From the IMG/VR virus record IMGVR_UViG_2563366821_000011: a DNA stretch of 13,293 nt. One strand, 5' to 3'. This DNA is from a virus (Duplodnaviria > Heunggongvirae > Uroviricota > Caudoviricetes). A model generated the notes under the pieces. That model was not told where the DNA came from. It saw nothing but the letters and a program-made list of their open reading frames with translations, and ran no database searches. Shown here piece after piece: positions 1-13,293 of the stretch; within the stretch, counting starts at the first letter, position 1, and each line of letters opens with the position of its first letter. Position numbers and translations under genes: made by a program.

Positions 1-669
1 ATGTGTGGACGCTTTGCCCAATCCCAAACGCGTGAAGATTACCTCGCGTTTCTCGCGGAAGATATTGAACGCGATATTCCCTACGATCCCGAACCTATTG
101 GCAGATACAACGTCGCGCCGGGAACCAAAGTCCTTCTGCTCAGTGAACGTGATGAACACCTTCATCTGGATCCGGTTTTCTGGGGATATGCTCCCGGATG
201 GTGGGATAAACCGCCGCTGATTAACGCCCGCGTAGAAACTGCCGCAACCAGTCGCATGTTTAAACCGCTCTGGCAACATGGTCGGGTAATATGCTTTGCC
301 GATGGCTGGTTTGAGTGGAAAAAAGAAGGCGACAAAAAACAGCCTTATTTTATCTATCGCGCTGATGGACAACCTGTTTTTATAGCCGCGATAGGTAGCA
401 CACCGTTTGAGCGCGGTGACGAAGCCGAAGGAGTTTTAATTGTCACTGCAGCAGCAGACCAGGGCCTGGTAGATATTCATGACCGCCGCCCGCTGGTACT
501 GTCGCCAGAAACTGCGCGGGAATGGATGCGGCAAGACATTGGTGGTAAAGAAGCCTCAGAAATCGCTACCAGAAGCTGTGTGCCAGCAAACCAGTTCATC
601 TGGCACCCTGTGTCGCGCGCGGTGGGTAATGTTAAAAACCAGGGCGCGGAGTTAATTCAACCTGTTTGA
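1..669 (+). CDS. yedK: SOS-response-associated peptidase (SRAP) / abasic-site processing protein YedK, 222 aa
   Basis: ORF opens with MCGRF (the N-terminal Cys2 nucleophile typical of SRAP proteins) and matches YedK of E. coli as I recall it. ATG at 1, TGA at 667-669. Confidence 0.9.
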   Translation: MCGRFAQSQTREDYLAFLAEDIERDIPYDPEPIGRYNVAPGTKVLLLSERDEHLHLDPVFWGYAPGWWDKPPLINARVETAATSRMFKPLWQHGRVICFADGWFEWKKEGDKKQPYFIYRADGQPVFIAAIGSTPFERGDEAEGVLIVTAAADQGLVDIHDRRPLVLSPETAREWMRQDIGGKEASEIATRSCVPANQFIWHPVSRAVGNVKNQGAELIQPV

Positions 670-864
670 TAAGCCTGGAGATTATCTACACCTGGATGGA
701 CATCATTGTACTATGCCCCGTACATGCCCCATCACATCCTCAACATCAAAGTATTAGAGCCTTGCAAACCATTATGCGTCTCAGTTTGTCTCATCTATCT
801 TACGCAAAAAAAATAGAACTAATATCAAGCGGCGCTATATTGCGTATTAAATAAAACCACCTCA

Positions 865-887
865 GGTGATGCTGCCAACTTACTGAT
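865..887. repeat. IS1 left terminal inverted repeat (about 23 bp)
   Basis: GGTGATGCTGCCAACTTACTGAT, imperfectly complementary to 1610-1632. Confidence 0.85.
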
Positions 888-919
888 TTAGTGTATGATG
901 GTGTTTTTGAGGTGCTCCA

Positions 920-1195
920 GTGGCTTCTGTTTCTATCAGCTGTCCCTCCTGTTCAGCTACTGACGGGGTGGTGCGTAACGGCAAAAGCACCGCCGGACAT
1001 CAGCGCTATCTCTGCTCTCACTGCCGTAAAACATGGCAACTGCAGTTCACTTACACCGCTTCTCAACCCGGTACGCACCAGAAAATCATTGATATGGCCA
1101 TGAATGGCGTTGGATGCCGGGCAACAGCCCGCATTATGGGCGTTGGCCTCAACACGATTTTACGTCACTTAAAAAACTCAGGCCGCAGTCGGTAA
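920..1195 (+). CDS. insA: IS1 InsA (transposition repressor / N-terminal part of the InsAB transposase), 91 aa, GTG start
   Basis: Translation [22 protein letters not shown]... with a CxxC...CxxC zinc finger and an HTH. Stop TAA at 1193-1195. Confidence 0.9.
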
Positions 1196-1617
1196 CCTCG
1201 CGCATACAGCCGGGCAGTGACGTCATCGTCTGCGCGGAAATGGACGAACAGTGGGGCTATGTCGGGGCTAAATCGCGCCAGCGCTGGCTGTTTTACGCGT
1301 ATGACAGGCTCCGGAAGACGGTTGTTGCGCACGTATTCGGTGAACGCACTATGGCGACGCTGGGGCGTCTTATGAGCCTGCTGTCACCCTTTGACGTGGT
1401 GATATGGATGACGGATGGCTGGCCGCTGTATGAATCCCGCCTGAAGGGAAAGCTGCACGTAATCAGCAAGCGATATACGCAGCGAATTGAGCGGCATAAC
1501 CTGAATCTGAGGCAGCACCTGGCACGGCTGGGACGGAAGTCGCTGTCGTTCTCAAAATCGGTGGAGCTGCATGACAAAGTCATCGGGCATTATCTGAACA
1601 TAAAACACTATCAATAA
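1114..1617 (+). CDS. insB: IS1 InsB reading frame (catalytic part of the InsAB transposase, made by -1 frameshift at AAAAAAC 1171-1177)
   Basis: 167-aa ORF in the -1 frame relative to insA that overlaps the insA 3-prime end. The A6C slippery motif sits at 1171-1177. Confidence 0.85.
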
Positions 1618-1632
1618 GTTGGAGTCATTACC
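1610..1632. repeat. IS1 right terminal inverted repeat (about 23 bp)
   Basis: Reverse complement GGTAATGACTCCAACTTATTGAT matches the left IR at most positions. Confidence 0.85.
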
Positions 1633-1663: not shown

Positions 1664-2650
1664 CTATTTAAGAATAAAACGGTATTTACTGTCAGGAGTG
1701 CTTTGCTGATCAAGTAGCAGTGAACGACATGGAGCAGTCAAAACCCGAGCATAACTACCATCAGGGCTTATGTTAATGTAACAAACCTTGCCCTTAACAC
1801 TATAATTTTCGGGGACGGATGCCTTTGCTGATACAGTAAATTTAAGGGTATGCCAGCCCGTTTTTTGCTTGTAGCTTGAAACCGAATGGAAATCATCTGA
1901 GTACTTATTTAACCCTGGAAACATGCTGCGCAGTGCGGGGATGGAATCTTCTATTATTTTATCGTTGGTTTTAATGTTAAAAACGCTGGTTTCAGTAGAA
2001 GCTACTGCTTTGGCATTTCCCCATTTACCAGCGAACACAATCATTCCCACGAAAAATATTGCTACAAGAACTAACACTCCCCCCAACACTACTACATGAG
2101 GCTTCCGGCTTCTGGTTGGTACAGTTGCGACTGATTTTGCACCGCTTTCCGATGGAGGTGATAGAGTTTTACTCTCATCACGAATATTCAGCAGATCATC
2201 AAAATAACCAAACACAGCCTGCAACTGCTCTTTGTCTAGGCCTTTAAGATGGGTTGTACCGAAATGCTTCAGACAGTATCTGTCACGGTCAAGACGATAC
2301 CCAGGGTCAGTAAGCGCCATTATTTTGCTGACCAGAAGATTACAGTCCTTCATATTCTGGATCTGTTGTGCATATCTCTGAAGGATCTCAACCGCACCAT
2401 GATAATCAGCCGCAGTCATTTCATTAACTGTTTTGGTATTAAGTTTCGTGTGGATCGTCATCCATAGCTCGCGCTTACTTTCCCCCAGATCAACCAATTC
2501 ATCCATCAATCTGTGTAAATCGCGTTTTTGCAGCAACGAAATTGGTTGCTGGGCCGAAGGAAGTATGTCAGCAGAATAGTTATGAATGGTAACATCACCG
2601 CTGACAACGTTACCCACATCCCCGTTAACTGTTTGCTTCTCTTTACTCAT
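1664..2650 (-). CDS. Hypothetical single-pass membrane protein, 328 aa, translationally coupled to the prophage repressor
   Basis: 987-bp ORF in an AT-rich region (about 37-40 percent GC by hand count). Its ATG overlaps the repressor stop in an ATGA. One strongly hydrophobic segment (VVVLGGVLVLVAIFFVGMIVFAG, about aa 185-207) is flanked by basic residues. The N-terminal motif GDVGNVVSGDVTI resembles the repressor C-terminal tail. I recognise no known family. Confidence 0.7.
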   Translation of the reverse strand: MSKEKQTVNGDVGNVVSGDVTIHNYSADILPSAQQPISLLQKRDLHRLMDELVDLGESKRELWMTIHTKLNTKTVNEMTAADYHGAVEILQRYAQQIQNMKDCNLLVSKIMALTDPGYRLDRDRYCLKHFGTTHLKGLDKEQLQAVFGYFDDLLNIRDESKTLSPPSESGAKSVATVPTRSRKPHVVVLGGVLVLVAIFFVGMIVFAGKWGNAKAVASTETSVFNIKTNDKIIEDSIPALRSMFPGLNKYSDDFHSVSSYKQKTGWHTLKFTVSAKASVPENYSVKGKVCYINISPDGSYARVLTAPCRSLLLDQQSTPDSKYRFILK

Positions 2651-3108
2651 CTTCTCTTGGTATTTTTGTTCATTATTCCACCTGTTCCTATGGTTACGTT
2701 ACCTTTGATAACATTCCCCAGAACATCTCCATGAATAACCTGTTCCGCCCGTTCTCTGGAGGAGCCAGTAGTCAAGGCCGACAAAACTGAACCTTTGACC
2801 TGTAATGGTGCCTGCCGGTAGTGCTGCAGTAACTCCATTTCATCACGTGATAAAGTTATACCTGATGACTCCCCGGTAAGAATGAACTGTACATTGGCCC
2901 CAATTCTTGCAAAGGCTGCAAGTAACTCACCTCCGGGAACAGCAACCCCTCGTTCATATTTCCCCCACATTTCTCTTGAAACGCCACAAAGGGCTGCTAC
3001 TTCAGCCTGCTTGAGTGATAACCGCGAACGCTCAGCTTTGAACCGCGACGCGCAAAGAGAATCAAAATTCACACAAACCTCATTGACAATGAGAACAATA
3101 GTTCTCAT
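2647..3108 (-). CDS. XRE/Cro-C1-type HTH transcriptional repressor (prophage c-repressor analogue), up to 153 aa
   Basis: HTH motif LSLKQAEVAALCGVSREMWGKYERG. Transcribed divergently from the early operon, as for Mu c. The start is uncertain: ATG at 3108 lies inside the operator palindrome and has no SD (possibly leaderless), while an in-frame GTG at codon 13 is preceded by GAGG. Confidence 0.75.
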   Translation of the reverse strand: MRTIVLIVNEVCVNFDSLCASRFKAERSRLSLKQAEVAALCGVSREMWGKYERGVAVPGGELLAAFARIGANVQFILTGESSGITLSRDEMELLQHYRQAPLQVKGSVLSALTTGSSRERAEQVIHGDVLGNVIKGNVTIGTGGIMNKNTKRR

Positions 3109-3158: not shown

Positions 3159-3347
3159 ATGACTTCCGAACAAGTTAAAAATCTCTTCCGTCAGCGTGGT
3201 ATCACGTTTACCCGCTGGGCCGAAGAACACGGCTACAGCCGCAATGAGGTCTATCGTGTTCTCAATGGACAGACCAAAGCTCGTTACGGCAAAGCCCATG
3301 AAATTGCCGTAAAACTGGGATTAAAACCCACGTCAAATGCGGCATAA
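3159..3347 (+). CDS. Small HTH DNA-binding protein in the ner position (Ner/Cro-like early regulator), 62 aa
   Basis: Strong SD AAGGAG 7 nt upstream. HTH-like segment TRWAEEHGYSRNEVYRVLNGQ. First gene of the rightward operon, opposite the repressor. Not obviously similar in sequence to Mu Ner. Confidence 0.65.
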   Translation: MTSEQVKNLFRQRGITFTRWAEEHGYSRNEVYRVLNGQTKARYGKAHEIAVKLGLKPTSNAA

Positions 3348-4636: not shown

Positions 4637-6406
4637 ATGAATGCTGCCCTGACTGAACGACTGGTTTATGTCGCCCGCGCGGCACGTGACGCGGGGCATG
4701 GTAAACGCGGTGCAATATACGACGCTGCCTGTGCTGAACTTGGCATGTCCCGCGCCACTCTGCTGCGCAGGCTGAAGGAGGTCTCTGTGACTGATAAACG
4801 CAAAAAACGCGCCGATGCCGGGCGCAGCGCCCTGACCCGCGACGAAGCCGCGCTGATATCTGCCACACTGCGTGAGGCCACCCGCAAGAACGGTAAGCGT
4901 CTCTATTCCATCGCAGATGCAGTGGAAACCCTACGGGCTAACGGCTTTATCACCGCAGGCAGAACAGATGAAACCACCAGTGAGTTTTTCCCGTTGTCTG
5001 AAGATGCCATCAGCCGTGCTCTGCGTAACTATGGCCTGCACCCGGAACAACTGGATGCCCCTGCACCACATACCGAAGTGGCCAGTCTGCATCCCAATCA
5101 TGTCTGGCAGATTGACGCCTCACTCTGCACGCTTTACTACCTGAGCAATGGACATAAAGGGCTGCAGGTGATGGACAGCGCGAAGTTCTACAAGAACAAG
5201 CCCGCTAACCTTGCCCGTATCGCCAGTGACCGCGTGTGGAGTTACGAGATTACCGACCATGCCAGCGGCTGGATTTACGTTGAGTATGTGACGGGCGCGG
5301 AATCAGGTGAGAACCTGTGTTCTGTGCTTATCAACGCCATGCAGGAGCGTGGCGGCGCAGACGTGCTGCACGGCGTGCCGAAAATACTCTATCTCGACCC
5401 CGGCTCGGCAAACACCGCGGGTATGACGAAAAACATGTGCCGCTCACTGGGCATCGACCTGATAGCGCACAAGCCGCATAACGCCCGCGCCACCGGACAG
5501 GTGGAAAAGGCGCGTGACATTATCGAACGCAAGCTGGAGCCGGGGCTGAAGTTCCGGCCGGTTCACAGTCTGGAAGAACTCAACGCGCTGGCCGCGAAAT
5601 GGCGCAGCCACTTTAACGCCACGGCTGTTCACAGCCGCCACGGTAAAACCCGCACGGATATCTGGCTGAAGATTACTGCTGAGCAGCTGAAAAAAGCGCC
5701 TTCCGTTGAGGTATGTCGTGAACTGGCTGTGGCGGCACCAGAACTCCGCAAAGTCACGCCAAAACTTCGTGTCTCGTTCCGGGGCACTGAATTTGACGTA
5801 TCAACGGTACCGGGCGTACTGGTTGGTGAAAAACTGATGATTACCCGTAACCCATGGCGCAGCGATGTGGCACAGGTGGTTCTGACCGGTGAGGACGGCC
5901 ACGAGACGTTCTTCCTGGTCGAAGAGGTCAGAAAGAACGAGTTTGGCTTTGCTGAAGGCGCGGCGGTATTTGGCGAAAGTTACAAAGCCCTGCCGGAAAC
6001 CTCGGCACAGATGGCGGCAAAAGAAACTGAAGCGCTGGTTACCGGTACAGACAACGCTGCAGATGCAGCCGCCGCACGCAAGGCGAAGGCGCTGCCGTTC
6101 GGCGGGCGGCTTGACCCGTATAAACATATCGACGACACCACACTTCCGGCCTATATGCCGAAGCGTGGTCAGGCCTCTGACGTACGCGGGCCGCGCACTG
6201 AACAACGTCCCATGACTCATGTGGAGGCCGCGAAAGCCCTGCGCGATAAGTTCAGCGCCGACGGCCTTACCTGGACGCCGGAACATTACCGCCAGTTAAC
6301 GGCACAGTACCCGGACGGCGTACCGGAAGCTGCACTGGATGAAGTCATGGCCACGCTGACCACGCCGGCACGCAGCAGTGTTATCAGCATTGTTAACGGC
6401 AACTGA
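4637..6406 (+). CDS. Mu-like DDE transposase (A protein), 589 aa
   Basis: N-terminal HTH, then an rve-type catalytic core with D160 (HVWQIDAS), D254 (LYLDPGS) and E290 (ATGQVEKA; D-35-E spacing). Located immediately upstream of the AAA+ B gene. Confidence 0.9.
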   Translation: MNAALTERLVYVARAARDAGHGKRGAIYDAACAELGMSRATLLRRLKEVSVTDKRKKRADAGRSALTRDEAALISATLREATRKNGKRLYSIADAVETLRANGFITAGRTDETTSEFFPLSEDAISRALRNYGLHPEQLDAPAPHTEVASLHPNHVWQIDASLCTLYYLSNGHKGLQVMDSAKFYKNKPANLARIASDRVWSYEITDHASGWIYVEYVTGAESGENLCSVLINAMQERGGADVLHGVPKILYLDPGSANTAGMTKNMCRSLGIDLIAHKPHNARATGQVEKARDIIERKLEPGLKFRPVHSLEELNALAAKWRSHFNATAVHSRHGKTRTDIWLKITAEQLKKAPSVEVCRELAVAAPELRKVTPKLRVSFRGTEFDVSTVPGVLVGEKLMITRNPWRSDVAQVVLTGEDGHETFFLVEEVRKNEFGFAEGAAVFGESYKALPETSAQMAAKETEALVTGTDNAADAAAARKAKALPFGGRLDPYKHIDDTTLPAYMPKRGQASDVRGPRTEQRPMTHVEAAKALRDKFSADGLTWTPEHYRQLTAQYPDGVPEAALDEVMATLTTPARSSVISIVNGN

Positions 6407-6416
6407 GGAGGAAAAC

Positions 6417-7583
6417 ATGCTGGTACTGAAGCAGCAACTGAAAGAGGCCCGTATCCCACAGGCGGTGGTGGCGAGAGCTGTCGATGTTTCTGAGGCCACG
6501 CTGGCCCAGATTGTGAATCATAACGCGTGGCCCCGCACCAGCCCCGGAGAAGTGCGCCGGCGTCTTGCGTCCTGGCTGGAAAGTCAGGGGATTGATACAA
6601 CGAAGAGTTTTGATGCTGTACAGGGCGCAGCCACGCCCCGTACAGCGGGTACCACAGATAAAACGAGCCTCAGTGAGGAAGAGAATATGTTACTCAAAAA
6701 ACAGGTGTTATTTCCAGCAACCAAAAAAGCGTTTGGTCTTTTCCGTGACCCGTTCGCCGATGAAGCCATGCAGGGTTCTGATGATGTGTTCACCACCCCG
6801 GACATTCGCTACGTGCGTGAGGCGTTGTACCAGACAGCCCGTCATGGTGGGTTTATGGCCGTCATCGGTGAGTCCGGTGCGGGTAAATCCACGCTGCGCC
6901 GCGACCTGACTGAACGTATCAACCGCGAGAATGCGCCGGTAATTGTTATCGAGCCATACATCATCGCTATGGAAGACAACGATGTGAAAGGGAAAACCCT
7001 GAAGGCAGCAGCGATTGCCGAAGCCATTATCAGTACCATCGCACCACTGGAAAGCATCAGACGCAGTCAGGACGCCCGCTTTCGCCAGTTGCATCGCGTC
7101 CTGAAAGACAGCAGCCAGGCGGGGTTCAGCCACGTTTTGGTGATTGAGGAGGCCCACAGTCTGCCCATTCCGACACTGAAACACCTCAAACGCTTTTTTG
7201 AGCTGGAGTCCGGTTTCAAAAAACTGCTGTCCATCGTGCTGATTGGCCAGCCGGAACTGGCGACAAAACTGTCTGAACGCAATATGGAAGTCCGTGAAGT
7301 CGTTCAGCGTTGTGAGGTGGTCGAACTTCTGCCTCTGGACAATAACCTTGAAGAATTTCTGACGTTCAAACTGCAACGGGCCGGTAAACAACTGACGGAC
7401 ATTATGGACGCCAGCGCAGTGGATGCCATACGTGCCCGCCTGAGCAATCCGGGAAGTCATCGTAAAAATATGGTCAGCCTGCTGTATCCGCTGGCCGTCA
7501 GTAACCTGGTGATAGCCGCCATGAATCTGGCCGCTGAAATCGGGGTTCCACAGGTCAACGCTGACGTTGTCAAAGGGGTTTAA
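6417..7583 (+). CDS. Mu B-like AAA+ ATPase (transposition target DNA activator), 388 aa
   Basis: SD GAGGAGG directly upstream. N-terminal HTH (QAVVARAVDVSEATLAQIVN), Walker A GESGAGKST and Walker B VLVIEEAH. An in-frame internal ATG with its own SD lies at 6687. Confidence 0.85.
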   Translation: MLVLKQQLKEARIPQAVVARAVDVSEATLAQIVNHNAWPRTSPGEVRRRLASWLESQGIDTTKSFDAVQGAATPRTAGTTDKTSLSEEENMLLKKQVLFPATKKAFGLFRDPFADEAMQGSDDVFTTPDIRYVREALYQTARHGGFMAVIGESGAGKSTLRRDLTERINRENAPVIVIEPYIIAMEDNDVKGKTLKAAAIAEAIISTIAPLESIRRSQDARFRQLHRVLKDSSQAGFSHVLVIEEAHSLPIPTLKHLKRFFELESGFKKLLSIVLIGQPELATKLSERNMEVREVVQRCEVVELLPLDNNLEEFLTFKLQRAGKQLTDIMDASAVDAIRARLSNPGSHRKNMVSLLYPLAVSNLVIAAMNLAAEIGVPQVNADVVKGV

Positions 7584-7882: not shown

Positions 7883-8413
7883 ATGGCAAAAAGTACAAAA
7901 GGGGCAAAACGTATCAAAGCCGCAGCAGCACTCTGGGTGCCGGGGACACGCGAAGAGGTCATTGAGGGAATCAGACTGCTTGGTGACGCGCAACGTGAAC
8001 TGGTCAGGGCTGAAACAGAAATGAATGACACCATTGGCGACATCACTGCACGTTATGCCCCGCTCACCGAGAGCCTGAAAAAACGCATGGCCGAACTGCA
8101 GTCCGGTATCCAGACATGGTGTGAGGCGCACCGTGATGAACTGACCGGCAACGGGAAGGTGAAGTTCGCTAACCTCACCACCGGCGAGGTGCAGTGGCGA
8201 AACCGTCCGCCGTCAGTCAGCATTCGCGGGGCGGATAATGTCATTGAACTGCTGAGACGTCTGGGGCTTGAGCGCTTTATTCGTGTAAAGGAGGAAATAA
8301 ATAAAGATGCCATTCTGAATGAAAAAGAGGCCGTGAAAAATATTCCCGGTATTTCCATTAAAAGCGACATTGAGGATTTTTCAATAATTCCTTTTGAGCA
8401 GGATGTGCAGTAA
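7883..8413 (+). CDS. gam: Host-nuclease inhibitor Gam (Mu Gam family, Ku-like DNA-end binding), 176 aa
   Basis: Strong SD AGGAGG. Co-linear with Mu Gam as I recall it: MAKxxKRIKxAAAxxVP..., TEMNDxI, WCEAxRDELT, PPSVSIRGxDxV, GLxRFIRxKxEINKxAIL and C-terminal EDFSIIPFEQ. Confidence 0.9.
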   Translation: MAKSTKGAKRIKAAAALWVPGTREEVIEGIRLLGDAQRELVRAETEMNDTIGDITARYAPLTESLKKRMAELQSGIQTWCEAHRDELTGNGKVKFANLTTGEVQWRNRPPSVSIRGADNVIELLRRLGLERFIRVKEEINKDAILNEKEAVKNIPGISIKSDIEDFSIIPFEQDVQ

Positions 8414-8983: not shown

Positions 8984-9280
8984 ATGACACGAAACACCGA
9001 ACTCACCCGCACCGCCCTCTACCGTCTGGCCCTGCAGCGTTTCGGGCCGGACGCACAGGCCCTGAAACTGGCAGAAGAGGCCGCTGAACTGGCGGCCAGT
9101 GCCGCCCGCAACCTGAACGGACAGGGCAGCGAAAGTGACCTCGCGGCAGAGCTGGCAGACGTGGAAATCATGACAGAGCAACTGCGCCTTCAGGGGATGG
9201 ACCGGCTGATTGACTTCCACAAACAGAAAAAACTGGAACGTCTGGCTGCACGACTGGGCGTGATTTACACGAACGAGTAA
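8984..9280 (+). CDS. MazG-like nucleoside triphosphate pyrophosphohydrolase domain protein, 98 aa
   Basis: Motifs KLAEEAAELAASAARN and AAELADVEIMTEQL resemble the acidic EExxE and E-x-x-D metal-binding helices of small MazG/HisE-like NTP-PPases. SD GAGGG upstream. Confidence 0.6.
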   Translation: MTRNTELTRTALYRLALQRFGPDAQALKLAEEAAELAASAARNLNGQGSESDLAAELADVEIMTEQLRLQGMDRLIDFHKQKKLERLAARLGVIYTNE

Positions 9281-10417: not shown

Positions 10418-10622
10418 ATCTGTTGTATGTGCCCTGTTCTGGTATTGTTTTGTCGGTTGGTGTACTGCTGAACTGCACCGCCGTTCAGGGTTTTATTCAC
10501 GTTACAGTGGTGCCGGCTACTGGATTAGCTGGTCGGTGATGTTCCTGTGCTGGCCTGTGGCGCTTCCTTTATATGTCGATTATATCGGTGGCGCAGGTAA
10601 AAGGAGCAACGATGATGACTAA
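10407..10622 (+). CDS. Small membrane protein, 71 aa
   Basis: SD GGGGGGA 8 nt upstream of ATG. Two hydrophobic, Trp/Cys-rich segments (VVCALFWYCFVGWC and WISWSVMFLCWPVALPLYV). Confidence 0.45.
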   Translation: MTAESVVCALFWYCFVGWCTAELHRRSGFYSRYSGAGYWISWSVMFLCWPVALPLYVDYIGGAGKRSNDDD

Positions 10623-11064
10623 ACAACGTCTTATCCAGCTCATTCATATTGCCCGTAATGAACTGGGTATGGATGAAGACACCTACCGCCAGATGTTACA
10701 GGGGCTGACCGGTAAAGCCTCAACCAAAGGAATGGATACCACACAACTAAACTGCGTGCTGGAATCCATGAAAAGGAAAGGCTTTCGCGTTAAGCCTGCC
10801 AGAAAAGCCAGCTCCGGTTTACCGCTGGATAACCATCCGCAGTCCAGGAAAATCCGTGCGCTATGGCTTGAAATGGCTGCTGCCGGCATTGTTCGTGACC
10901 GTTCAGAAAATGCATTAGCGCGGTGGATCAAGCGGGAAACGGGCATCAGCGCCCTGCGCTGGCTCAATACTGAACAGGCAAGCAGTGTTATTGAGAAACT
11001 GAAGAAGTGGCAGCGCAGAGCTGCGGGAGTAAAACATGAGCGACCTGAATCAGTTTCGAAGTAA
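10612..11064 (+). CDS. gemA: GemA-like protein (Mu gp16 family, DUF1018), 150 aa
   Basis: SD AAGGAG 5 nt upstream. N-terminal motif KQRLIQLIHIARNELGMDEDTYRQMLQGLTGKAS is typical of Mu gp16/GemA-like proteins. Lies immediately upstream of mor, as in Mu. Confidence 0.7.
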   Translation: MMTKQRLIQLIHIARNELGMDEDTYRQMLQGLTGKASTKGMDTTQLNCVLESMKRKGFRVKPARKASSGLPLDNHPQSRKIRALWLEMAAAGIVRDRSENALARWIKRETGISALRWLNTEQASSVIEKLKKWQRRAAGVKHERPESVSK

Positions 11065-11434
11065 AGGGCCGGAACTCCTGGTGGAACTGGCACAGCATAC
11101 CTCTGAGACCGTTCGCGAGATTATTGATATTGAGCCCGCAATTGCCGACCAGATTGGTCAGGCCGTCGCGAACCGAATGATGCAGGTCTGGGGCGGGCAA
11201 AACGTTTATTTCCCGATGGGCATGGTATGGAAGGTCAGTCAGCGCGACCGGGAAATCTTCAGGGAGTTTAACGGACGCAACCACCACGAACTGGCCCGCA
11301 ATTTTGGTGTTTCGCTTCAGTGGGTCTACAGCGTGGTTAAGCGGGTCAGAAAAGAAGAACTGGATCGGATGCAGGGCAGGTTGTTTGATGAAGATCTGCC
11401 AGAGGAGACGAAAGACGTTAACAAATCCAGATAA
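11036..11434 (+). CDS. mor: Mor-family transcriptional activator (middle operon regulator), 132 aa
   Basis: Motifs GGQNVYFP and FNGRNHHELARNFGVSLQWVYSVVKRVRK match the Mor/C family HTH region. Last gene of the early operon. Confidence 0.85.
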   Translation: MSDLNQFRSKGPELLVELAQHTSETVREIIDIEPAIADQIGQAVANRMMQVWGGQNVYFPMGMVWKVSQRDREIFREFNGRNHHELARNFGVSLQWVYSVVKRVRKEELDRMQGRLFDEDLPEETKDVNKSR

Positions 11435-11479
11435 TTCCTGCTTGTTAAAGTCCTTTCAAAAATCTCCTTATTGTATAAG

Positions 11480-11511
11480 AGCACGGTAGACCCTTTACCG
11501 TGCTTTTTTTA
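11480..11511 (+). terminator. Rho-independent terminator-like hairpin (stem AGCACGGTA / TACCGTGCT, 7-nt loop, T-run)
   Basis: Perfect 9-bp inverted repeat immediately followed by 6-7 T, 46 bp after the mor stop. It could also serve as a dyad protein-binding site. Confidence 0.6.
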
Positions 11512-11548
11512 TGCTCTCTATGTAATATTCAGGATGCAGGGAGAAAAT

Positions 11549-12181
11549 ATGTTTGACGTTTCGTTATTAAATCTGCCATGGGCAACACTGGTGACCCTGA
11601 CCAGTGGCTATATTGGGTATTTTATTGCGAATGTGGGGCTGAAGGATCACCACAAACCCATTGAGGTGACTTTTTCTTCGCTGATTTTTGGCCTGACAGC
11701 AATGATGGCTTACCAGGCTGTTATGTGGGCAGGTCTGAATGCCTGGCTGGCAACCCCCCCAGCACTTCTGTGTGCCGTTACATGCGGTGCGTGGTGGCGC
11801 AGGTACGGTCGCAAATGGATGTACAGATTACTGTGGAATAATGATATTTCATGGTCTGACAATACCAGCTCAGCATGGCAGGCAATGTTTGATCAAACAG
11901 GCTTCAGCGTCACCGAGGTCAGAGTGATTCTTCGCGATGGTTCCGGTATGATGTCACGGCTGCCAGGGAACTTTGAAGAGTGGCCTAACGGTCCGTTTAC
12001 CCTGGGAAATAAAGGCGATATGGTTCTTTACGTCACGCACAGCAGCCCTTCAGGAAGTAACGAATGGGAAGAGTATAAAGGCGTGGTTGATAAGTACTGG
12101 GGAGCTCTGGCAACCTATATTCCAGCAGATCAGATTGCCAGAGTGGAGATCAGGCGCGTTCGTGCAACGAACGATGAATGA
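11549..12181 (+). CDS. Hypothetical membrane protein (three N-terminal TM helices plus a soluble C-terminal domain of about 120 aa), 210 aa
   Basis: SD GGGAGA 7 nt upstream of ATG. Three hydrophobic segments in the first 85 aa, followed by RRYGRK. Occupies the position where Mu carries C. No family recognised. Confidence 0.65.
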   Translation: MFDVSLLNLPWATLVTLTSGYIGYFIANVGLKDHHKPIEVTFSSLIFGLTAMMAYQAVMWAGLNAWLATPPALLCAVTCGAWWRRYGRKWMYRLLWNNDISWSDNTSSAWQAMFDQTGFSVTEVRVILRDGSGMMSRLPGNFEEWPNGPFTLGNKGDMVLYVTHSSPSGSNEWEEYKGVVDKYWGALATYIPADQIARVEIRRVRATNDE

Positions 12182-12343
12182 TGTTTATTTTTTCCCTGGA
12201 GCAGGAGCTGCCGGCATAGTGGTTTTATTGGCAGAGGAAGACGATTCTCCTTTTCTACCGGAATCGCGCTCGAACGTCACAATGTGCTTGCTTTTGGGCT
12301 TTTCTGAGTAATCCAGGCTGTCATGCTTATTGTTTTGAGTAGT

Positions 12344-12421
12344 CATTGGAATCATCCTTTTTGTTACGGGTCATGTTTCAGCAAACTCGATTCTAAGTTG
12401 CCAGGAAGGATGATTTCAATG
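12344..12421. repeat. Inverted repeat, 16 bp arms (CATTGGAATCATCCTT / AAGGATGATTTCAATG, 15/16 match) separated by 46 bp
   Basis: Direct reading of the sequence: arms at 12344-12359 and 12406-12421. Confidence 0.5.
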
Positions 12422-12499
12422 CCCGACTTATCTATCGTATAGCGGAAAAGAATTTCAGTTCTGTTCACCAGAACCCATGTTAACCCACTCCAATTCGTT

Positions 12500-12532
12500 A
12501 TTTATCTCACGGATCCCCCTTCATTTATCTCA
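12500..12532. repeat. Direct repeat ATTTATCTCA x2 (12500-12509 and 12523-12532), 23-bp register, next to the dgcQ junction
   Basis: Exact 10-bp direct repeat, each followed by a GATC-containing segment, lying just inside the foreign DNA. Confidence 0.4.
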
Positions 12533-13293
12533 TGTCTGATCAACCAGTAGTTATTACTGTCTACCGGAACACTGACGGTAACCTGCGGTTCAGTATTGCT
12601 GGCGTGTTCCGGTTGCGAAGTGAACCAGCGTACCGCGCGGTGACGATTTTCTCGTTGTGAATGGCCGATAAACCAGGGTTGGGTGACATAGCCGTAATAA
12701 CGCGTTGGTACATTGCGCGTAAACAAGGTCGGCAGCGTCGAAACGTAAAATCCAGCACGCGAGACATACACCGCCTGTTCAACCATCGACGAGGAGTTGT
12801 GCGCCAGTCGCAGCAAGTAACCAACTTCCAGTGCAGCGGTAATTTCATTGTCGAGGCTTTCATTTTCGCGAGACAGGAGATTCCCCTCGCTGACTAATGC
12901 ATCCGATACGCCATTGACTGGCAGGGTGCGCCGTCGGTTGAGTTCGATTTGCCAGGTGTGCTCGTCGCGATGCTGTTCGAACTCGGTTACGGCATTACGC
13001 AGAGAGGTGAAATCCAGTGGCGCCACGAGAGCTTCGCGCATGCCATTACGCAAAAAGATCAGTTTGTCGACGTTATACTGCAAATGCTTATCGAGCGCGT
13101 TGGCTACGTTTTCCAGATGATTACGCTGGCTGGAGATATAGGCATCTTCCAGCACCACCACTTCACGCCAGGTGAGCAAGGTGGAAAAAAGCAATACCAC
13201 GATAAAGCAGAGATTAACGATATGACCAGGCCCCAGGCGGCGTGCGAGTTTTTTCAACCAGCTCTGGTTTTCCATTTTTGTCTCGTGCTGCAC
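12502..13293 (-). pseudogene. dgcQ: 5-prime fragment of a DgcQ/YedQ-like membrane-anchored diguanylate cyclase gene (N-terminal TM and periplasmic sensor domain only; GGDEF domain absent)
   Basis: The ORF starts at the window edge (GTG) and reads [15 protein letters not shown]..., with a signal-anchor TM ([18 protein letters not shown]) and a periplasmic-type domain. It ends after 263 aa with a short unrelated tail ([13 protein letters not shown]) and has no GGDEF motif. Identity is from memory of E. coli YedQ (about 564 aa). Confidence 0.55.

What the first reader, a model, noticed from the sequence alone, without database searches (positions are those of the whole stretch)
11440..12181. Membrane protein gene after mor, in the position of the Mu C gene, behind a terminator-like dyad
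In Mu, mor is followed by the Mor-dependent middle promoter and the late activator C. Here mor is followed by a perfect 9-bp hairpin with a T-run (11480-11511) and then a 210-aa protein with three N-terminal TM helices and an unrecognised soluble C-terminal domain. The dyad is centred about 40 bp upstream of a possible -10 (TGTAAT, 11521-11526) with no good -35, the layout expected for an activator-dependent promoter. The hairpin may therefore be both the early terminator and a Mor-binding dyad. The gene could be a Mor-controlled accessory gene, such as a toxic abortive-infection effector.
Basis: partly seen in the sequence, partly recalled or inferred. Interest (0 to 1): 0.55.

Follow-up and report, generated by a model that had tools for sequence, protein, structure and literature searches.

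The report
Two-gene prophage cargo cassette after mor
The membrane-protein gene after mor is one half of a small, widely travelled two-gene cargo cassette (a membrane protein plus a tiny proline-rich protein) that sits at the very end of a Mu-like prophage, also occurs in bacterial anti-phage defence islands, and is probably an uncharacterised phage-defence or conflict module rather than a Mor-dependent "middle" gene.

Summary
The sequence features are real: a 210-aa ORF (11549-12181), a perfect 9-bp hairpin with T7 (11480-11510), and three N-terminal hydrophobic helices. The framing is wrong. This prophage has the divergent layout of PhiKM (classified Bcepmuvirus). Its early operon runs outward to the phage end (12542), it has only one Mor/C-type gene, and no late genes follow mor. 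The hairpin is a conserved intrinsic terminator: 5 of 12 pairs show compensatory changes, and G·U pairs are tolerated. Its stem does not track the Mor protein, so it is not a Mor operator. The gene is half of a ~0.95-kb insertion that near-identical phage PhiKM lacks. Its partner is a convergent 53-aa Pro/Lys-tailed ORF (12185-12346) with a conserved sigma-70 promoter. The two stop codons abut in 40 of 44 distinct loci across gamma- and alpha-proteobacteria. The pair occurs in other prophage types and next to Thoeris, type I R-M, TerY-P and AriA/PtuA-like genes. The protein has three TM helices and a cytoplasmic Sm-like barrel, is distantly related to DUF6338, and matches no known defence family. 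Most likely it is a new membrane-acting conflict or defence module. That function is inferred, not shown.

The parts
11036..11434 (+). mor, the last gene of the early operon and the only Mor/C-family regulator of this phage type
   Evidence: Pfam PF08765 Mor, E 3.6e-43. It is the only Mor-like ORF in the intact prophage L024.
11445..11464 (+). Weak copy of the late-leader motif (TTAAAGTCCTTTCAAAAATC), directly after the mor stop codon and 5' of the hairpin. Possible activator site; status uncertain.
   Evidence: The late leaders of intact prophage L024 share TTAA-N5-TTTAAWATC: 7 matches at 2 mismatches or fewer against 0.87 expected, including three exact copies and one 2-mismatch copy in late leaders, all on the late strand. 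A PWM built from them ranks this site 2 of 26,478 in the window, 1 of 25,128 in L010 and 4 of 25,140 in L005, but only 22-58 in other loci, and scores are 12-14 bits against 27-31. As an ungapped pattern it needs 3 mismatches, which is chance level.
11480..11510 (+). Intrinsic terminator of the early operon: 9-bp perfect stem (extendable to 12-14 pairs), a 7-nt loop as a 9-bp stem (3 nt in the extended fold), then T7
   Evidence: It is conserved upstream of the homologue in diverged Mu-like loci with different stems: 94% of cells paired, 5 of 12 pairs with compensatory double changes, 0 of 500 shuffles reaching the covariation score. The stem does not co-vary with Mor.
11549..12181 (+). X210: a 210-aa inner-membrane protein with three TM helices (predicted N-out/C-in) and a cytoplasmic Sm/LSm-like beta barrel, a distant relative of DUF6338
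12185..12346 (-). Convergent 53-aa hydrophilic ORF (MTTQNN...PAAPAPGKK), the conserved partner of X210. Its stop codon lies 4 nt from the X210 stop (3 bases between them).
   Evidence: RefSeq WP_001571575.1; PHROG 15726. An HMM of the family gives 53 hits among 15,857 six-frame fragments, all in this position and none elsewhere. It is recognisable in 40 of 44 distinct loci.
12390..12419 (-). Sigma-70 promoter of the small ORF: TTGAAA-18-TAGAAT (10 of 12), followed by AAGGA and the ATG
   Evidence: The same promoter is conserved in seven diverged loci: window, L005, L006, L008, L010, L056, L058.
12457..12475 (-). Terminator-like hairpin on the - strand, just inside the phage end. It may block read-in from the disrupted host gene dgcQ.
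   Evidence: Consensus scan only; not examined further.
12499..12542 (.). Terminal region of the transposable prophage. It holds two GAGATAAAT repeats (12523-12531 and 12499-12507) and ends ...TGATCA at 12542, followed by the ACCAGT target duplication (12543-12548).
   Evidence: In ~110 E. coli genomes the similarity stops at window 12542-12552, with a different host gene beyond in each. Both termini of the intact copy begin TGAT and carry two GATAAAT repeats 23-24 bp apart, and ACTGGT is duplicated at the two junctions.
12543..13293 (-). 5' part of the host gene dgcQ, interrupted by the prophage insertion

Best explanation
SHOWN. The window holds the early arm of a transposable Mu-like prophage with the divergent layout of PhiKM (classified Bcepmuvirus). 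An IS1-adjacent deletion has removed its late genes. In this phage type the early operon (ner ... A, B, gam, gemA, mor) runs outward and stops at a strong intrinsic terminator (11480-11510). About 1 kb further on lie the terminal transposase-binding repeats (end at 12542). The stretch in between is a cargo cassette (a moron) that the near-identical phage PhiKM lacks. It holds two convergent genes whose stop codons almost touch. One is X210 (11549-12181): three TM helices, predicted N-out/C-in, plus a cytoplasmic Sm-like beta barrel. The other is a 53-aa disordered-looking protein with a Pro/Lys tail (12185-12346), driven by a conserved near-consensus sigma-70 promoter. The same gene pair, in the same geometry, recurs in gamma- and alpha-proteobacteria. 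It occurs in Mu-like prophages (always right after mor), in HK97-like prophages, beside integrases and invertases, and in chromosomal islands next to Thoeris ThsB, type I R-M, TerY-P and AriA/PtuA-like genes. INFERRED. The cassette is a self-contained conflict module, most likely anti-phage defence of the abortive-infection or exclusion type. The small gene is expressed constitutively in the lysogen. With no terminator between the genes, its transcript should run antisense into X210, and its Pro-rich tail (PxxPxK-like) may also bind the SH3/Sm-like barrel. Either way it would keep X210 silent. X210 has no conserved sigma-70 promoter of its own and sits behind a terminator. It would therefore be made only when that balance is disturbed, for example by read-through, by activator-dependent transcription from the weak late-type motif at 11445-11464, or by loss of the labile small protein. 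It would then oligomerise through its barrel domain (Sm-type barrels form rings) and damage or gate the inner membrane with its holin-like three-helix domain. The confidence of 0.5 is for the whole statement: about 0.9 for the shown anatomy (terminal two-gene cargo cassette behind a terminator) and about 0.4 for the inferred defence/conflict function and its regulation.
For: Layout and terminal position. IS1 deletion. Terminator. Insertion relative to PhiKM, whose phage end lies ~165 bp after mor. Lower G+C in the cassette (0.46-0.50) than in the early operon (0.54-0.60). Synteny after mor in all Enterobacterales loci, although A is only 45-60% identical. Coupling with the small ORF: all 53 HMM hits among 15,857 ORF fragments lie in the abutting convergent position, and 40 of 44 distinct loci carry it. 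Conserved sigma-70 promoter of the small ORF in 7 loci, and none for X210. Other prophage types. Defence-island neighbours: confirmed with PADLOC (ThsB 2e-46; REase_I E = 0; TerY 8e-130; STK_OB 1e-182; AriA 5e-41). Fold and topology. Independent experimental hint: proline-rich microproteins ending in PPPPKK, encoded next to a DUF6338 gene in P. stutzeri, were detected by mass spectrometry with 44-114 PSMs (PMC10433244).
Against: No function has been tested, and defence-island association is only guilt by association from three chromosomal loci. One locus (L076) has ordinary metabolic neighbours. Four symbiont-type loci (L009, L011, L023, L053) lack the small ORF. Three of them keep an intact X210 ORF, while the L023 copy is frameshifted. 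So X210 alone is tolerated, which argues against a simple 'essential antitoxin' relationship. The X210 helices are only moderately hydrophobic (mean Kyte-Doolittle 0.96-1.34). The holin resemblance is weak (Foldseek E 0.01-0.8). There is no match to any PADLOC model. The P. stutzeri microproteins are not significant hits to the small-protein HMM, and they are co-directional with their DUF6338 gene, not convergent.
Confidence: 0.5

Rival explanations
1. X210 is a Mor-dependent gene whose promoter uses TGTAAT (11521-11526) as its -10, and the hairpin dyad, centred about 40 bp upstream, is the Mor-binding site as well as the early terminator.
For: The geometry in the window is as described. Mor-type activators are known, from established work on Mu Pm, to bind dyads centred near -43.
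Against: The stem sequence is uncoupled from Mor. Mor at 31-37% identity goes with almost the same stem, and Mor at 85-87% identity goes with unrelated stems. The stem tolerates G·U pairs and always has a T-run after it, which is RNA-terminator behaviour. The half-site GCACGGTA is absent from the late leaders, which share a different motif. TGTAAT and its spacing are not conserved in L005, L006, L010, L046 or L048.
Confidence: 0.05
2. X210 is controlled by Mor, or by early read-through, through the late-leader-like motif at 11445-11464. It serves the phage's own lytic cycle, for instance as an accessory holin/antiholin-like lysis-timing protein or another late membrane function. This would be analogous to the C-dependent mom gene at the end of Mu.
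For: The motif site ranks 1-4 of ~25,000 positions in three diverged loci. The predicted start, ~50 nt from the TTAA, falls in the hairpin loop in the window (~11494), which would bypass the terminator. X210 lacks its own conserved sigma-70 promoter. The N-terminal domain has weak holin-like fold hits.
Against: Motif scores are 12-14 bits against 27-31 for the real late leaders, and the rank is only 22-58 in L006, L007 and L009. In L005 and L010 the predicted start lies before most of the hairpin, so the terminator would not be bypassed. The intact phage already has a complete lysis cassette of holin, SLT endolysin and spanin. PhiKM is a phage without the cassette. The same pair sits in unrelated prophage modules and in non-phage islands, where no Mor exists.
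Confidence: 0.17
3. The cassette is a non-toxic superinfection-exclusion or lysogenic-conversion function. X210 is made in the lysogen and blocks DNA entry, or alters the envelope, without killing the cell.
For: It occupies a terminal cargo slot of a temperate phage, encodes an inner-membrane protein, and is retained in a defective prophage remnant. X210 without the small ORF is tolerated in symbiont genomes.
Against: There is no recognisable constitutive promoter for X210, and a strong terminator lies in front of it. The convergent, constitutively promoted partner gene suggests that X210 is held down rather than expressed. The defence-island neighbours are mostly abortive-infection or restriction types, but this does not discriminate strongly.
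Confidence: 0.15
4. X210 is a holin-like exporter or membrane partner for the proline-rich microprotein, which would be the active product (for example a proline-rich antimicrobial-type peptide), as the authors of the P. stutzeri study speculated for their peptides.
For: The tight coupling of the two genes. The P. stutzeri microproteins are abundant (PMC10433244). The fold hits to holins.
Against: The convergent orientation with overlapping 3' ends argues for antagonistic expression, not co-expression. The small protein has no signal peptide or hydrophobic segment.
Confidence: 0.08

Closest known systems
Morons of temperate phages (extra genes inserted between conserved phage genes, as defined for lambdoid phages by Hendrix and colleagues; from my own knowledge)
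   Same: It is present in some, and absent from other, nearly identical phages (PhiKM lacks it). It has lower G+C than its surroundings. It sits between a terminator and the phage end. It carries at least one promoter of its own. It moves between unrelated phage types.
   Different: It is a two-gene convergent unit, not the usual promoter-gene-terminator unit. The larger gene has no recognisable promoter of its own.
Phage Mu mom/com at the right end of Mu (a late, C-dependent accessory operon; from my own knowledge)
   Same: An accessory function placed next to a terminus of a transposable phage, possibly under a Mor/C-family activator.
   Different: There is no sequence or fold relationship. 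It lies at the early-operon end, not the late end. Activator dependence is not shown. The product is a membrane protein, not a DNA-modification enzyme.
Two-component membrane abortive-infection or toxin-antitoxin-like prophage systems (for example lambda RexAB; type I/II TA modules; from my own knowledge)
   Same: It is prophage-borne. It combines a small inner-membrane protein with a holin-like helical bundle and a second small partner that is expressed constitutively. It is found in defence islands.
   Different: It has no homology to RexA/B or to any PADLOC model. The genes are convergent rather than co-transcribed. The putative effector is tolerated without its partner in some genomes. Toxicity is untested.
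Pfam DUF6338 (PF19865) and the P. stutzeri DUF6338 locus with three proline-rich microproteins (PMC10433244)
   Same: The size is similar (about 200 aa). 18 of 34 homologues give weak PF19865 hits, and NCBI names some of them 'DUF6338 family protein'. Adjacent microproteins have an MTKK-type start and a PPPPKK tail.
   Different: The window protein itself does not hit PF19865 at E <= 1. In P. stutzeri the microprotein genes are co-directional and in three copies. They are not significant hits to the small-protein HMM.
MscS-type channels (three TM helices followed by an Sm-like beta domain that forms a heptameric ring; from my own knowledge)
   Same: The same order of parts: three TM helices, then a cytoplasmic Sm-like barrel.

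Membership tests
Mu C / middle-operon gene | Product is a Mor/C-family HTH transcription activator | tested here: not met
   X210 has no Pfam hit, whereas mor hits PF08765 at 3.6e-43. phmmer with Mor against all ORFs of the intact prophage finds only mor itself.
Mu C / middle-operon gene | Lies between mor and the late (lysis, head, tail) operons | tested here: not met
   The phage end is 361 bp downstream. The late genes lie on the other side of the repressor, on the opposite strand.
Intrinsic (Rho-independent) terminator | G+C-rich stem-loop immediately followed by a U-tract, at the end of an operon | tested here: met
   A 9-bp perfect stem with T7 lies 46 nt after the mor stop codon.
Intrinsic (Rho-independent) terminator | Structure rather than sequence is conserved | tested here: met
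   Six distinct stems: 94% of cells paired, 5 of 12 pairs with changes on both sides, G·U pairs tolerated, 0 of 500 shuffles reaching the score, and the slide controls reach only 35-61% paired.
Intrinsic (Rho-independent) terminator | Actually terminates transcription in vivo | not testable with these tools
   This needs RNA 3'-end mapping.
Mor operator (activator-binding dyad) | Site sequence co-varies with the activator and recurs at the other promoters it controls | tested here: not met
   The stem does not track Mor identity. The half-site is absent from the late leaders, which share TTAA-N5-TTTAAWATC instead.
Moron | Present or absent between otherwise near-identical phages | tested here: met
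   In PhiKM, gemA is 97% and mor 90% identical and A, B and gam are 99-100% identical, but the phage end comes ~165 bp after mor with no cassette.
Moron | Own promoter and terminator; deviating base composition | tested here: inconclusive
   The small ORF has a conserved sigma-70 promoter and the G+C is lower. No promoter was found for X210, and no terminator lies between the two genes.
Pfam DUF6338 (PF19865) | Match to the family HMM at its gathering score | tested here: inconclusive
   The window protein gives no hit at E <= 1. 18 of 34 homologues hit weakly, best 1.4e-6. Precomputed hits are marked weak or faint.
Known anti-phage defence systems (PADLOC-DB v2, 2023) | Match to a model of a described system | tested here: not met
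   No hit at E <= 1 for X210 or for the small ORF.
Anti-phage defence system (generic) | Enrichment next to known defence genes | tested here: inconclusive
   Three independent chromosomal loci lie among ThsB/TIR, type I REase + TerY-P, and Avs2/AriA/PtuA-like genes. One locus does not. No genome-wide statistic could be computed.
Anti-phage defence system (generic) | Protects against phage when expressed | not testable with these tools
   This needs plaque assays.
Class I (3-TM) holins | Three TM helices, N-out/C-in, about 70-150 aa, encoded in the lysis cassette | tested here: not met
   The predicted topology fits and weak fold hits exist. But the protein carries a ~110-aa barrel domain and lies far from the lysis cassette, which has its own holin.
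MscS channels | Sequence or profile homology to MscS TM3 plus beta domain | tested here: not met
   hhalign probability 0.15%.
Type II toxin-antitoxin | Co-transcribed bicistronic pair; the toxin is not tolerated without the antitoxin | tested here: not met
   The genes are convergent. An intact X210 ORF persists without the small ORF in L009, L011 and L053.

The most novel reading that the evidence does not exclude
X210 and its Pro/Lys-tailed microprotein found a previously unrecognised, widespread two-gene anti-phage defence family (at least 395 protein clusters at 50% identity). It is carried both by prophages of several types and by defence islands. In it, a holin-like three-helix membrane domain is gated by a ring-forming Sm/SH3-like cytoplasmic barrel, and the convergently encoded proline-rich microprotein acts as the brake, by antisense transcription and/or by its PxxPxK-like tail binding the barrel. 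The DUF6338-associated proline-rich microproteins seen by mass spectrometry in P. stutzeri would then be the same principle in another arrangement.
Probability: 0.35. Interest if true: 0.75.

Novelty: new variant of a known kind. Interest (0 to 1): 0.6.

Why it matters
If the cassette is a defence or conflict module, it adds a compact, experimentally tractable system (about 0.95 kb, two genes) with an unusual design. The design is a membrane effector with an Sm-like barrel, paired with a convergent, constitutively expressed microprotein that most gene callers miss in many genomes. It would give a first functional handle on the DUF6338-like family, which has no assigned function. It would also explain proline-rich microproteins that proteomics has already detected but that were thought to be species-specific. 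For phage biology, it corrects the reading of this prophage type: there is a single Mor-type activator, no C gene, and the slot between the early-operon terminator and the terminal repeats is used for cargo. The work also yields a candidate late-promoter motif (TTAA-N5-TTTAAWATC with a -10-like hexamer 19 bp downstream) that can be tested directly with Mor.

Tried and rejected
1. Mor-binding dyad: rejected. The stem is uncoupled from Mor identity, its half-site is absent from the late leaders, and it shows RNA-type covariation.

3. A promoter upstream of the hairpin (TTCAAA / TATAAG): the spacer is only 13 nt, so I rejected it by inspection.

4. A weak promoter across the hairpin (TAGACC-17-TATGCT, 8 of 12): present in the window and L006, not in L005 or L010. 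Left open as unlikely.

5. MscS homology: rejected.

6. Sequence search of solved structures: only noise, E >= 0.67.

7. Foldseek against PDB: only Sm/LSm hits, E >= 0.07. AFDB50 was not available.

8. Rfam on 11300-12600: nothing meaningful.

10. Homology of the P. stutzeri SEP1 and SEP2 microproteins to the small-protein HMM: not significant. I kept only the motif-level resemblance.

11. Literature searches for the accessions, PHROG ids, accessory genes of BcepMu-type E. coli prophages, and proline-rich small proteins in defence islands: nothing relevant apart from PMC10433244. No supplementary text is held for two recent defence-discovery papers.

12. The PhiKM 'Fe2+ ABC transporter permease' ORF after mor, first taken as alternative cargo: it lies beyond the phage end and is flanking host DNA.

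13. Kyte-Doolittle segments at a threshold of 1.6: none found. The helices are only moderately hydrophobic.
Full report
**1. What is in the window**

The ORF map and comparison with annotated E. coli genomes give the following layout:

| Window coordinates | Feature |
|---|---|
| 1-669 | yedK |
| up to 1632 | an IS1 copy |
| 2647-3108 (-) | repressor of the Mu-like early arm |
| 3159-3347 | ner-like gene |
| 4637-6406 | transposase A |
| 6378-7583 | transposase B |
| 7883-8413 | gam |
| 10573-11064 | gemA (gp16) |
| 11036-11434 | mor |
| 11549-12181 | the gene in question, called X210 here |
| 12543-13293 (-) | a truncated dgcQ |

In the closest complete genomes, the yedK-IS1 junction lies about 41 kb from the prophage end. 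The window therefore comes from a strain in which an IS1-adjacent deletion removed the late half of the prophage.

**2. Checking the observation**

Confirmed:
- The ORF has 210 codons. Its ATG is at 11549, one base earlier than implied, and it has a good RBS.
- The hairpin is exactly as described: AGCACGGTA at 11480-11488 pairs with TACCGTGCT at 11496-11504, followed by T7.
- The folded region is more stable than all 200 shuffles (z = -3.4).
- TGTAAT is at 11521-11526, with no -35 hexamer.
- The protein has three N-terminal helices and a C-terminal beta domain (AF2, pLDDT 84). It has no Pfam, NCBIfam or PADLOC family, only an unannotated PHROG.

Not confirmed: the positional claim.

- About 110 E. 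coli genomes carry mor, X210 and the next ~360 bp. Similarity always stops at window 12542-12552, and a different host gene follows each time (gudD, zraS, yfiB, mdfA, ptsP and others). That point is the end of a transposable element.
- Intact copies (L001, L002, L024) are ~37.5-kb prophages. Holin, endolysin, spanin, terminase, portal, head and tail genes lie on the other side of the repressor, on the opposite strand.
- The related phage PhiKM is classified as a Bcepmuvirus.
- The two termini both begin TGAT and carry two GATAAAT repeats 23-24 bp apart. ACTGGT of dgcQ is duplicated at the junctions.
- The intact prophage has only one Mor/C-family gene.

So nothing here corresponds to 'the position of the Mu C gene'. 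After mor come a terminator, about 1 kb of cargo, and the phage end.

**4. The hairpin is a terminator, not a Mor operator**

- Wherever a homologue of X210 follows mor in a well-preserved locus, a hairpin with a T-run lies ~70 nt upstream of the ATG. The stems differ: GCACGGTA/TACCGTGC, GCACGgTGG/CCAgCGTGC, ACACAGTGG/CCACTGTGT and GCGCAAtGG/CCtgTTGCGC.
- On an alignment of six distinct versions, 94% of cells pair, 5 of 12 pairs carry changes on both sides, several G·U pairs occur, and neither shuffles (0 of 500) nor slid registers (35-61% paired) come close.
- The stem sequence is unrelated to the Mor protein beside it. Loci whose Mor is 31-37% identical to the window's keep almost the same stem. 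Loci whose Mor is 85-87% identical have entirely different stems.
- The half-site does not occur at the late-operon leaders.

**5. A candidate late-promoter motif, and a weak copy in front of the hairpin**

- The four late-operon leaders of the intact prophage share TTAA-N5-TTTAAWATC. Three copies are exact and one has two mismatches. All are on the late strand and all are intergenic. In total there are 7 matches at 2 mismatches or fewer, against 0.87 expected.
- Each leader has a -10-like hexamer at positions 38-43 (GATGCT, CAAACT, CATACT, AATACT) followed by G.
- Mor is the only Mor/C-type protein, so it is the obvious candidate activator. That is an inference.
- A related sequence, TTAAAGTCCTTTCAAAAATC (11445-11464), follows the mor stop codon. 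A PWM built from the four leaders ranks that site 2 of 26,478 in the window, 1 of 25,128 in L010 and 4 of 25,140 in L005. It ranks only 22-58 in other loci, with 12-14 bits against 27-31 for the leaders. As a plain pattern it is at chance level.

Mor-dependent expression of X210 is therefore possible but weakly supported. If it exists, it uses a site 5' of the hairpin, not the hairpin itself.

**6. X210 is half of a two-gene cassette**

- Directly downstream, on the opposite strand, lies a 53-aa ORF at 12185-12346: MTTQNNKHDSLDYSEKPKSKHIVTFERDSGRKGESSSSANKTTMPAAPAPGKK. RefSeq lists it as WP_001571575.1 and it belongs to PHROG 15726. Its stop codon is 4 nt from that of X210.
- It has a near-consensus sigma-70 promoter, TTGAAA-18-TAGAAT (12419-12390), and an RBS. 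The promoter is conserved in seven diverged loci.
- Positional counterparts exist in almost every locus that encodes an X210 homologue, in both gamma- and alpha-proteobacteria. They are 40-60 aa long and hydrophilic. They start M-T/S-x-K/N, contain one to three [DE]xKx[YF]xxP or [ST]Y[TRK]P motifs, and end in a Pro-rich, usually basic tail such as PPPPKK or PPSPKKK.
- An HMM of these sequences finds 53 hits among 15,857 six-frame ORF fragments from all fetched loci. Every hit is in the abutting convergent position and none is elsewhere.
- Of 44 distinct loci with enough downstream sequence, 31 score at E < 0.01 and 9 more carry recognisable diverged copies. Sphingobium L020 has three in tandem. 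Only four symbiont-type loci (L009, L011, L023, L053) have lost it.

**7. The cassette is mobile cargo**

- PhiKM shares a 97-100% identical early region, with mor itself 90% identical. Its phage end lies ~165 bp after mor, with no cassette. KP12 has an unrelated 109-aa gene in the slot.
- The cassette has lower G+C (0.46-0.50) than the early operon (0.54-0.60).
- In Enterobacterales the homologue always follows mor, even where transposase A is only 45-60% identical.
- In alpha-proteobacteria the same pair sits in other phage types:
  - between the head-tail adaptor and head-closure genes (L016);
  - between the prohead protease and the capsid gene (L075);
  - between the small terminase and the tape measure (L021);
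  - beside a DNA invertase (L013) or a phage integrase (L078).
- In chromosomal islands its neighbours are known defence genes, confirmed with PADLOC:
  - L070/L071: Thoeris ThsB (2e-46) with a TIR effector and SLATT;
  - L073: a type I restriction enzyme (E = 0) with TerY (8e-130) and STK_OB (1e-182), plus HipA;
  - L068: Avs2/Aga-like and AriA/PtuA-like ATPases, with a PRTase-DprA pair.
- One locus (L076) has ordinary metabolic neighbours.

**8. The protein**

- The family is large: 395 clusters at 50% identity, almost all full-length at ~200-220 aa. All members are unnamed, or named 'DUF6338 family protein'.
- 18 of 34 homologues give weak PF19865 hits. The window protein gives none.
- The AF2 model has helices at 11-27, 37-60 and 65-97, and a beta barrel at 119-205.
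- Loop charges across 135 family members give mean K+R counts of 0.3 (N-terminus), 1.9 (loop 1), 0.3 (loop 2) and 4.5 (after TM3). This fits N-out/C-in, with the barrel in the cytoplasm.
- Family-wide conserved positions are G20, Y21, Y24, G30, H35, D39, F47, W83, R84, G131, G153, G156, Y161, G185, T189, P192 and R202.
- The order 'three TM helices, then an Sm-like barrel' recalls MscS, but there is no profile similarity (0.15%).

**9. Outside evidence**

The only paper mentioning DUF6338 (PMC10433244) reports three novel proline-rich microproteins next to a DUF6338 gene in P. stutzeri, detected by digest-free mass spectrometry with 44-114 PSMs. Two of the sequences are:
- MVSSPGSGVQTNGANPPAPANVRPAMAPTAPPPPKK
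- MTKKIGGNPGSPVQGGVNKETTSQRPSAPPSAPPPPPKKGG

The authors considered them restricted to P. stutzeri. They share the MTKK start and PPPPKK tail with the family found here. However, they are co-directional with the DUF6338 gene, and they do not score significantly with my HMM. I treat them as a parallel, not as members.

**10. Interpretation**

Shown:
- The cassette's anatomy, its terminal cargo position and its mobility.
- The terminator nature of the hairpin.
- The tight coupling with the microprotein gene and its conserved promoter.
- The defence-gene neighbourhoods.

Inferred:
- The pair is a conflict or defence module, with X210 as a membrane-acting effector.
- The microprotein gene restrains X210, by convergent antisense transcription (no terminator separates the genes) and perhaps by its PxxPxK-like tail binding the SH3/Sm-like barrel.

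Against a simple toxin-antitoxin picture, X210 persists intact without its partner in three symbiont-type loci (L009, L011, L053). How X210 is transcribed is unresolved.

**11. Verdict**

The finding is real and more interesting than an isolated 'hypothetical membrane protein', but for a different reason than proposed. It is not a C-position gene behind a Mor-binding dyad. It is a conserved, unannotated two-gene cargo module at a phage terminus, with defence-island associations. Novelty: a new variant of a known kind (a prophage-borne accessory or defence cassette). Interest: 0.6.

Noticed in passing
window 1-1632 and 1633-2650: yedK is followed by an IS1 copy whose right end (1632) joins directly to prophage sequence just downstream of the 328-aa gene. 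In the closest complete genomes the same yedK-IS1 junction lies ~41 kb from the prophage right end and carries a fliR annotation. So this strain has an IS1-adjacent deletion that removed the late prophage genes, the 3' half of dgcQ and the intervening host genes. The lineage also appears to have lost most of the fliE-R region.
   Followed up: partly
window 1664-2650 (- strand): A 328-aa ORF overlaps the stop of the repressor gene, and is probably co-transcribed with it. It has an N-terminal region resembling the flagellar regulator Flk (NCBIfam NF007987, 2.9e-12, far below cut-off), a hydrophobic segment around residues 185-205, and PHROG hits that include a 'moron ... membrane protein' family. 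It is a second candidate lysogen-expressed cargo gene of this prophage.
   Followed up: no
L024 12691-12708, 20083-20100, 26000-26017, 32351-32368 (intact relative; the region is deleted in the window): The four late-operon leaders share TTAA-N5-TTTAAWATC, with a -10-like hexamer (GATGCT, CAAACT, CATACT, AATACT, each followed by G) exactly 19 bp downstream. This is a candidate binding site and promoter architecture for the single Mor-type activator of this phage group.
   Followed up: partly
window 8984-9280: The early operon encodes a 98-aa MazG-like nucleoside triphosphate pyrophosphohydrolase, according to the RefSeq annotation of the identical gene in L002. Such enzymes in phages are sometimes linked to counter-defence or nucleotide-pool control.
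   Followed up: no
L024 34803-35475 (tail-fibre gene of the intact relative): The octamer GCACCGTA recurs five times at exactly 168-nt intervals. This indicates five tandem 56-aa repeats in the tail-fibre protein.
   Followed up: no
L020 2008-2423 (Sphingobium cyanobacteriorum): Instead of one small partner ORF, three consecutive Pro-rich small ORFs on the convergent strand follow the X210 homologue. They end ...PPPPPPSR, ...PPPPPPPPSR and ...PPPPPPSKRAS. This echoes the three proline-rich microproteins next to the P. stutzeri DUF6338 gene.
   Followed up: partly
L013 6789-7313, L022 6782-7252, L025 8802-9272 (Afipia and Bradyrhizobium): In this subgroup a conserved ~156-174-aa ORF (M.(L/I)D(F/L)PG......DD(V/L)PLGGFFM...) lies immediately upstream of the small ORF on the same strand. 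It may be a lineage-specific third component.
   Followed up: no
L003 6622-6966 (PhiKM record PQ738613.1): The ORF annotated 'Fe2+ ABC transporter permease protein 2' lies beyond the phage terminus (...CATTTATCTCAAGTCTAATCA at about 6589). It is therefore flanking host DNA in a record labelled 'partial genome', and the tail-fibre genes that follow it suggest the record is permuted or joined across the ends.
   Followed up: partly
window 12457-12475 (- strand): A terminator-like hairpin just inside the phage end, oriented to stop transcription entering from the interrupted host gene dgcQ. It overlaps a subterminal element (GAAAAGAATT...) that is conserved near the end in relatives.
   Followed up: no
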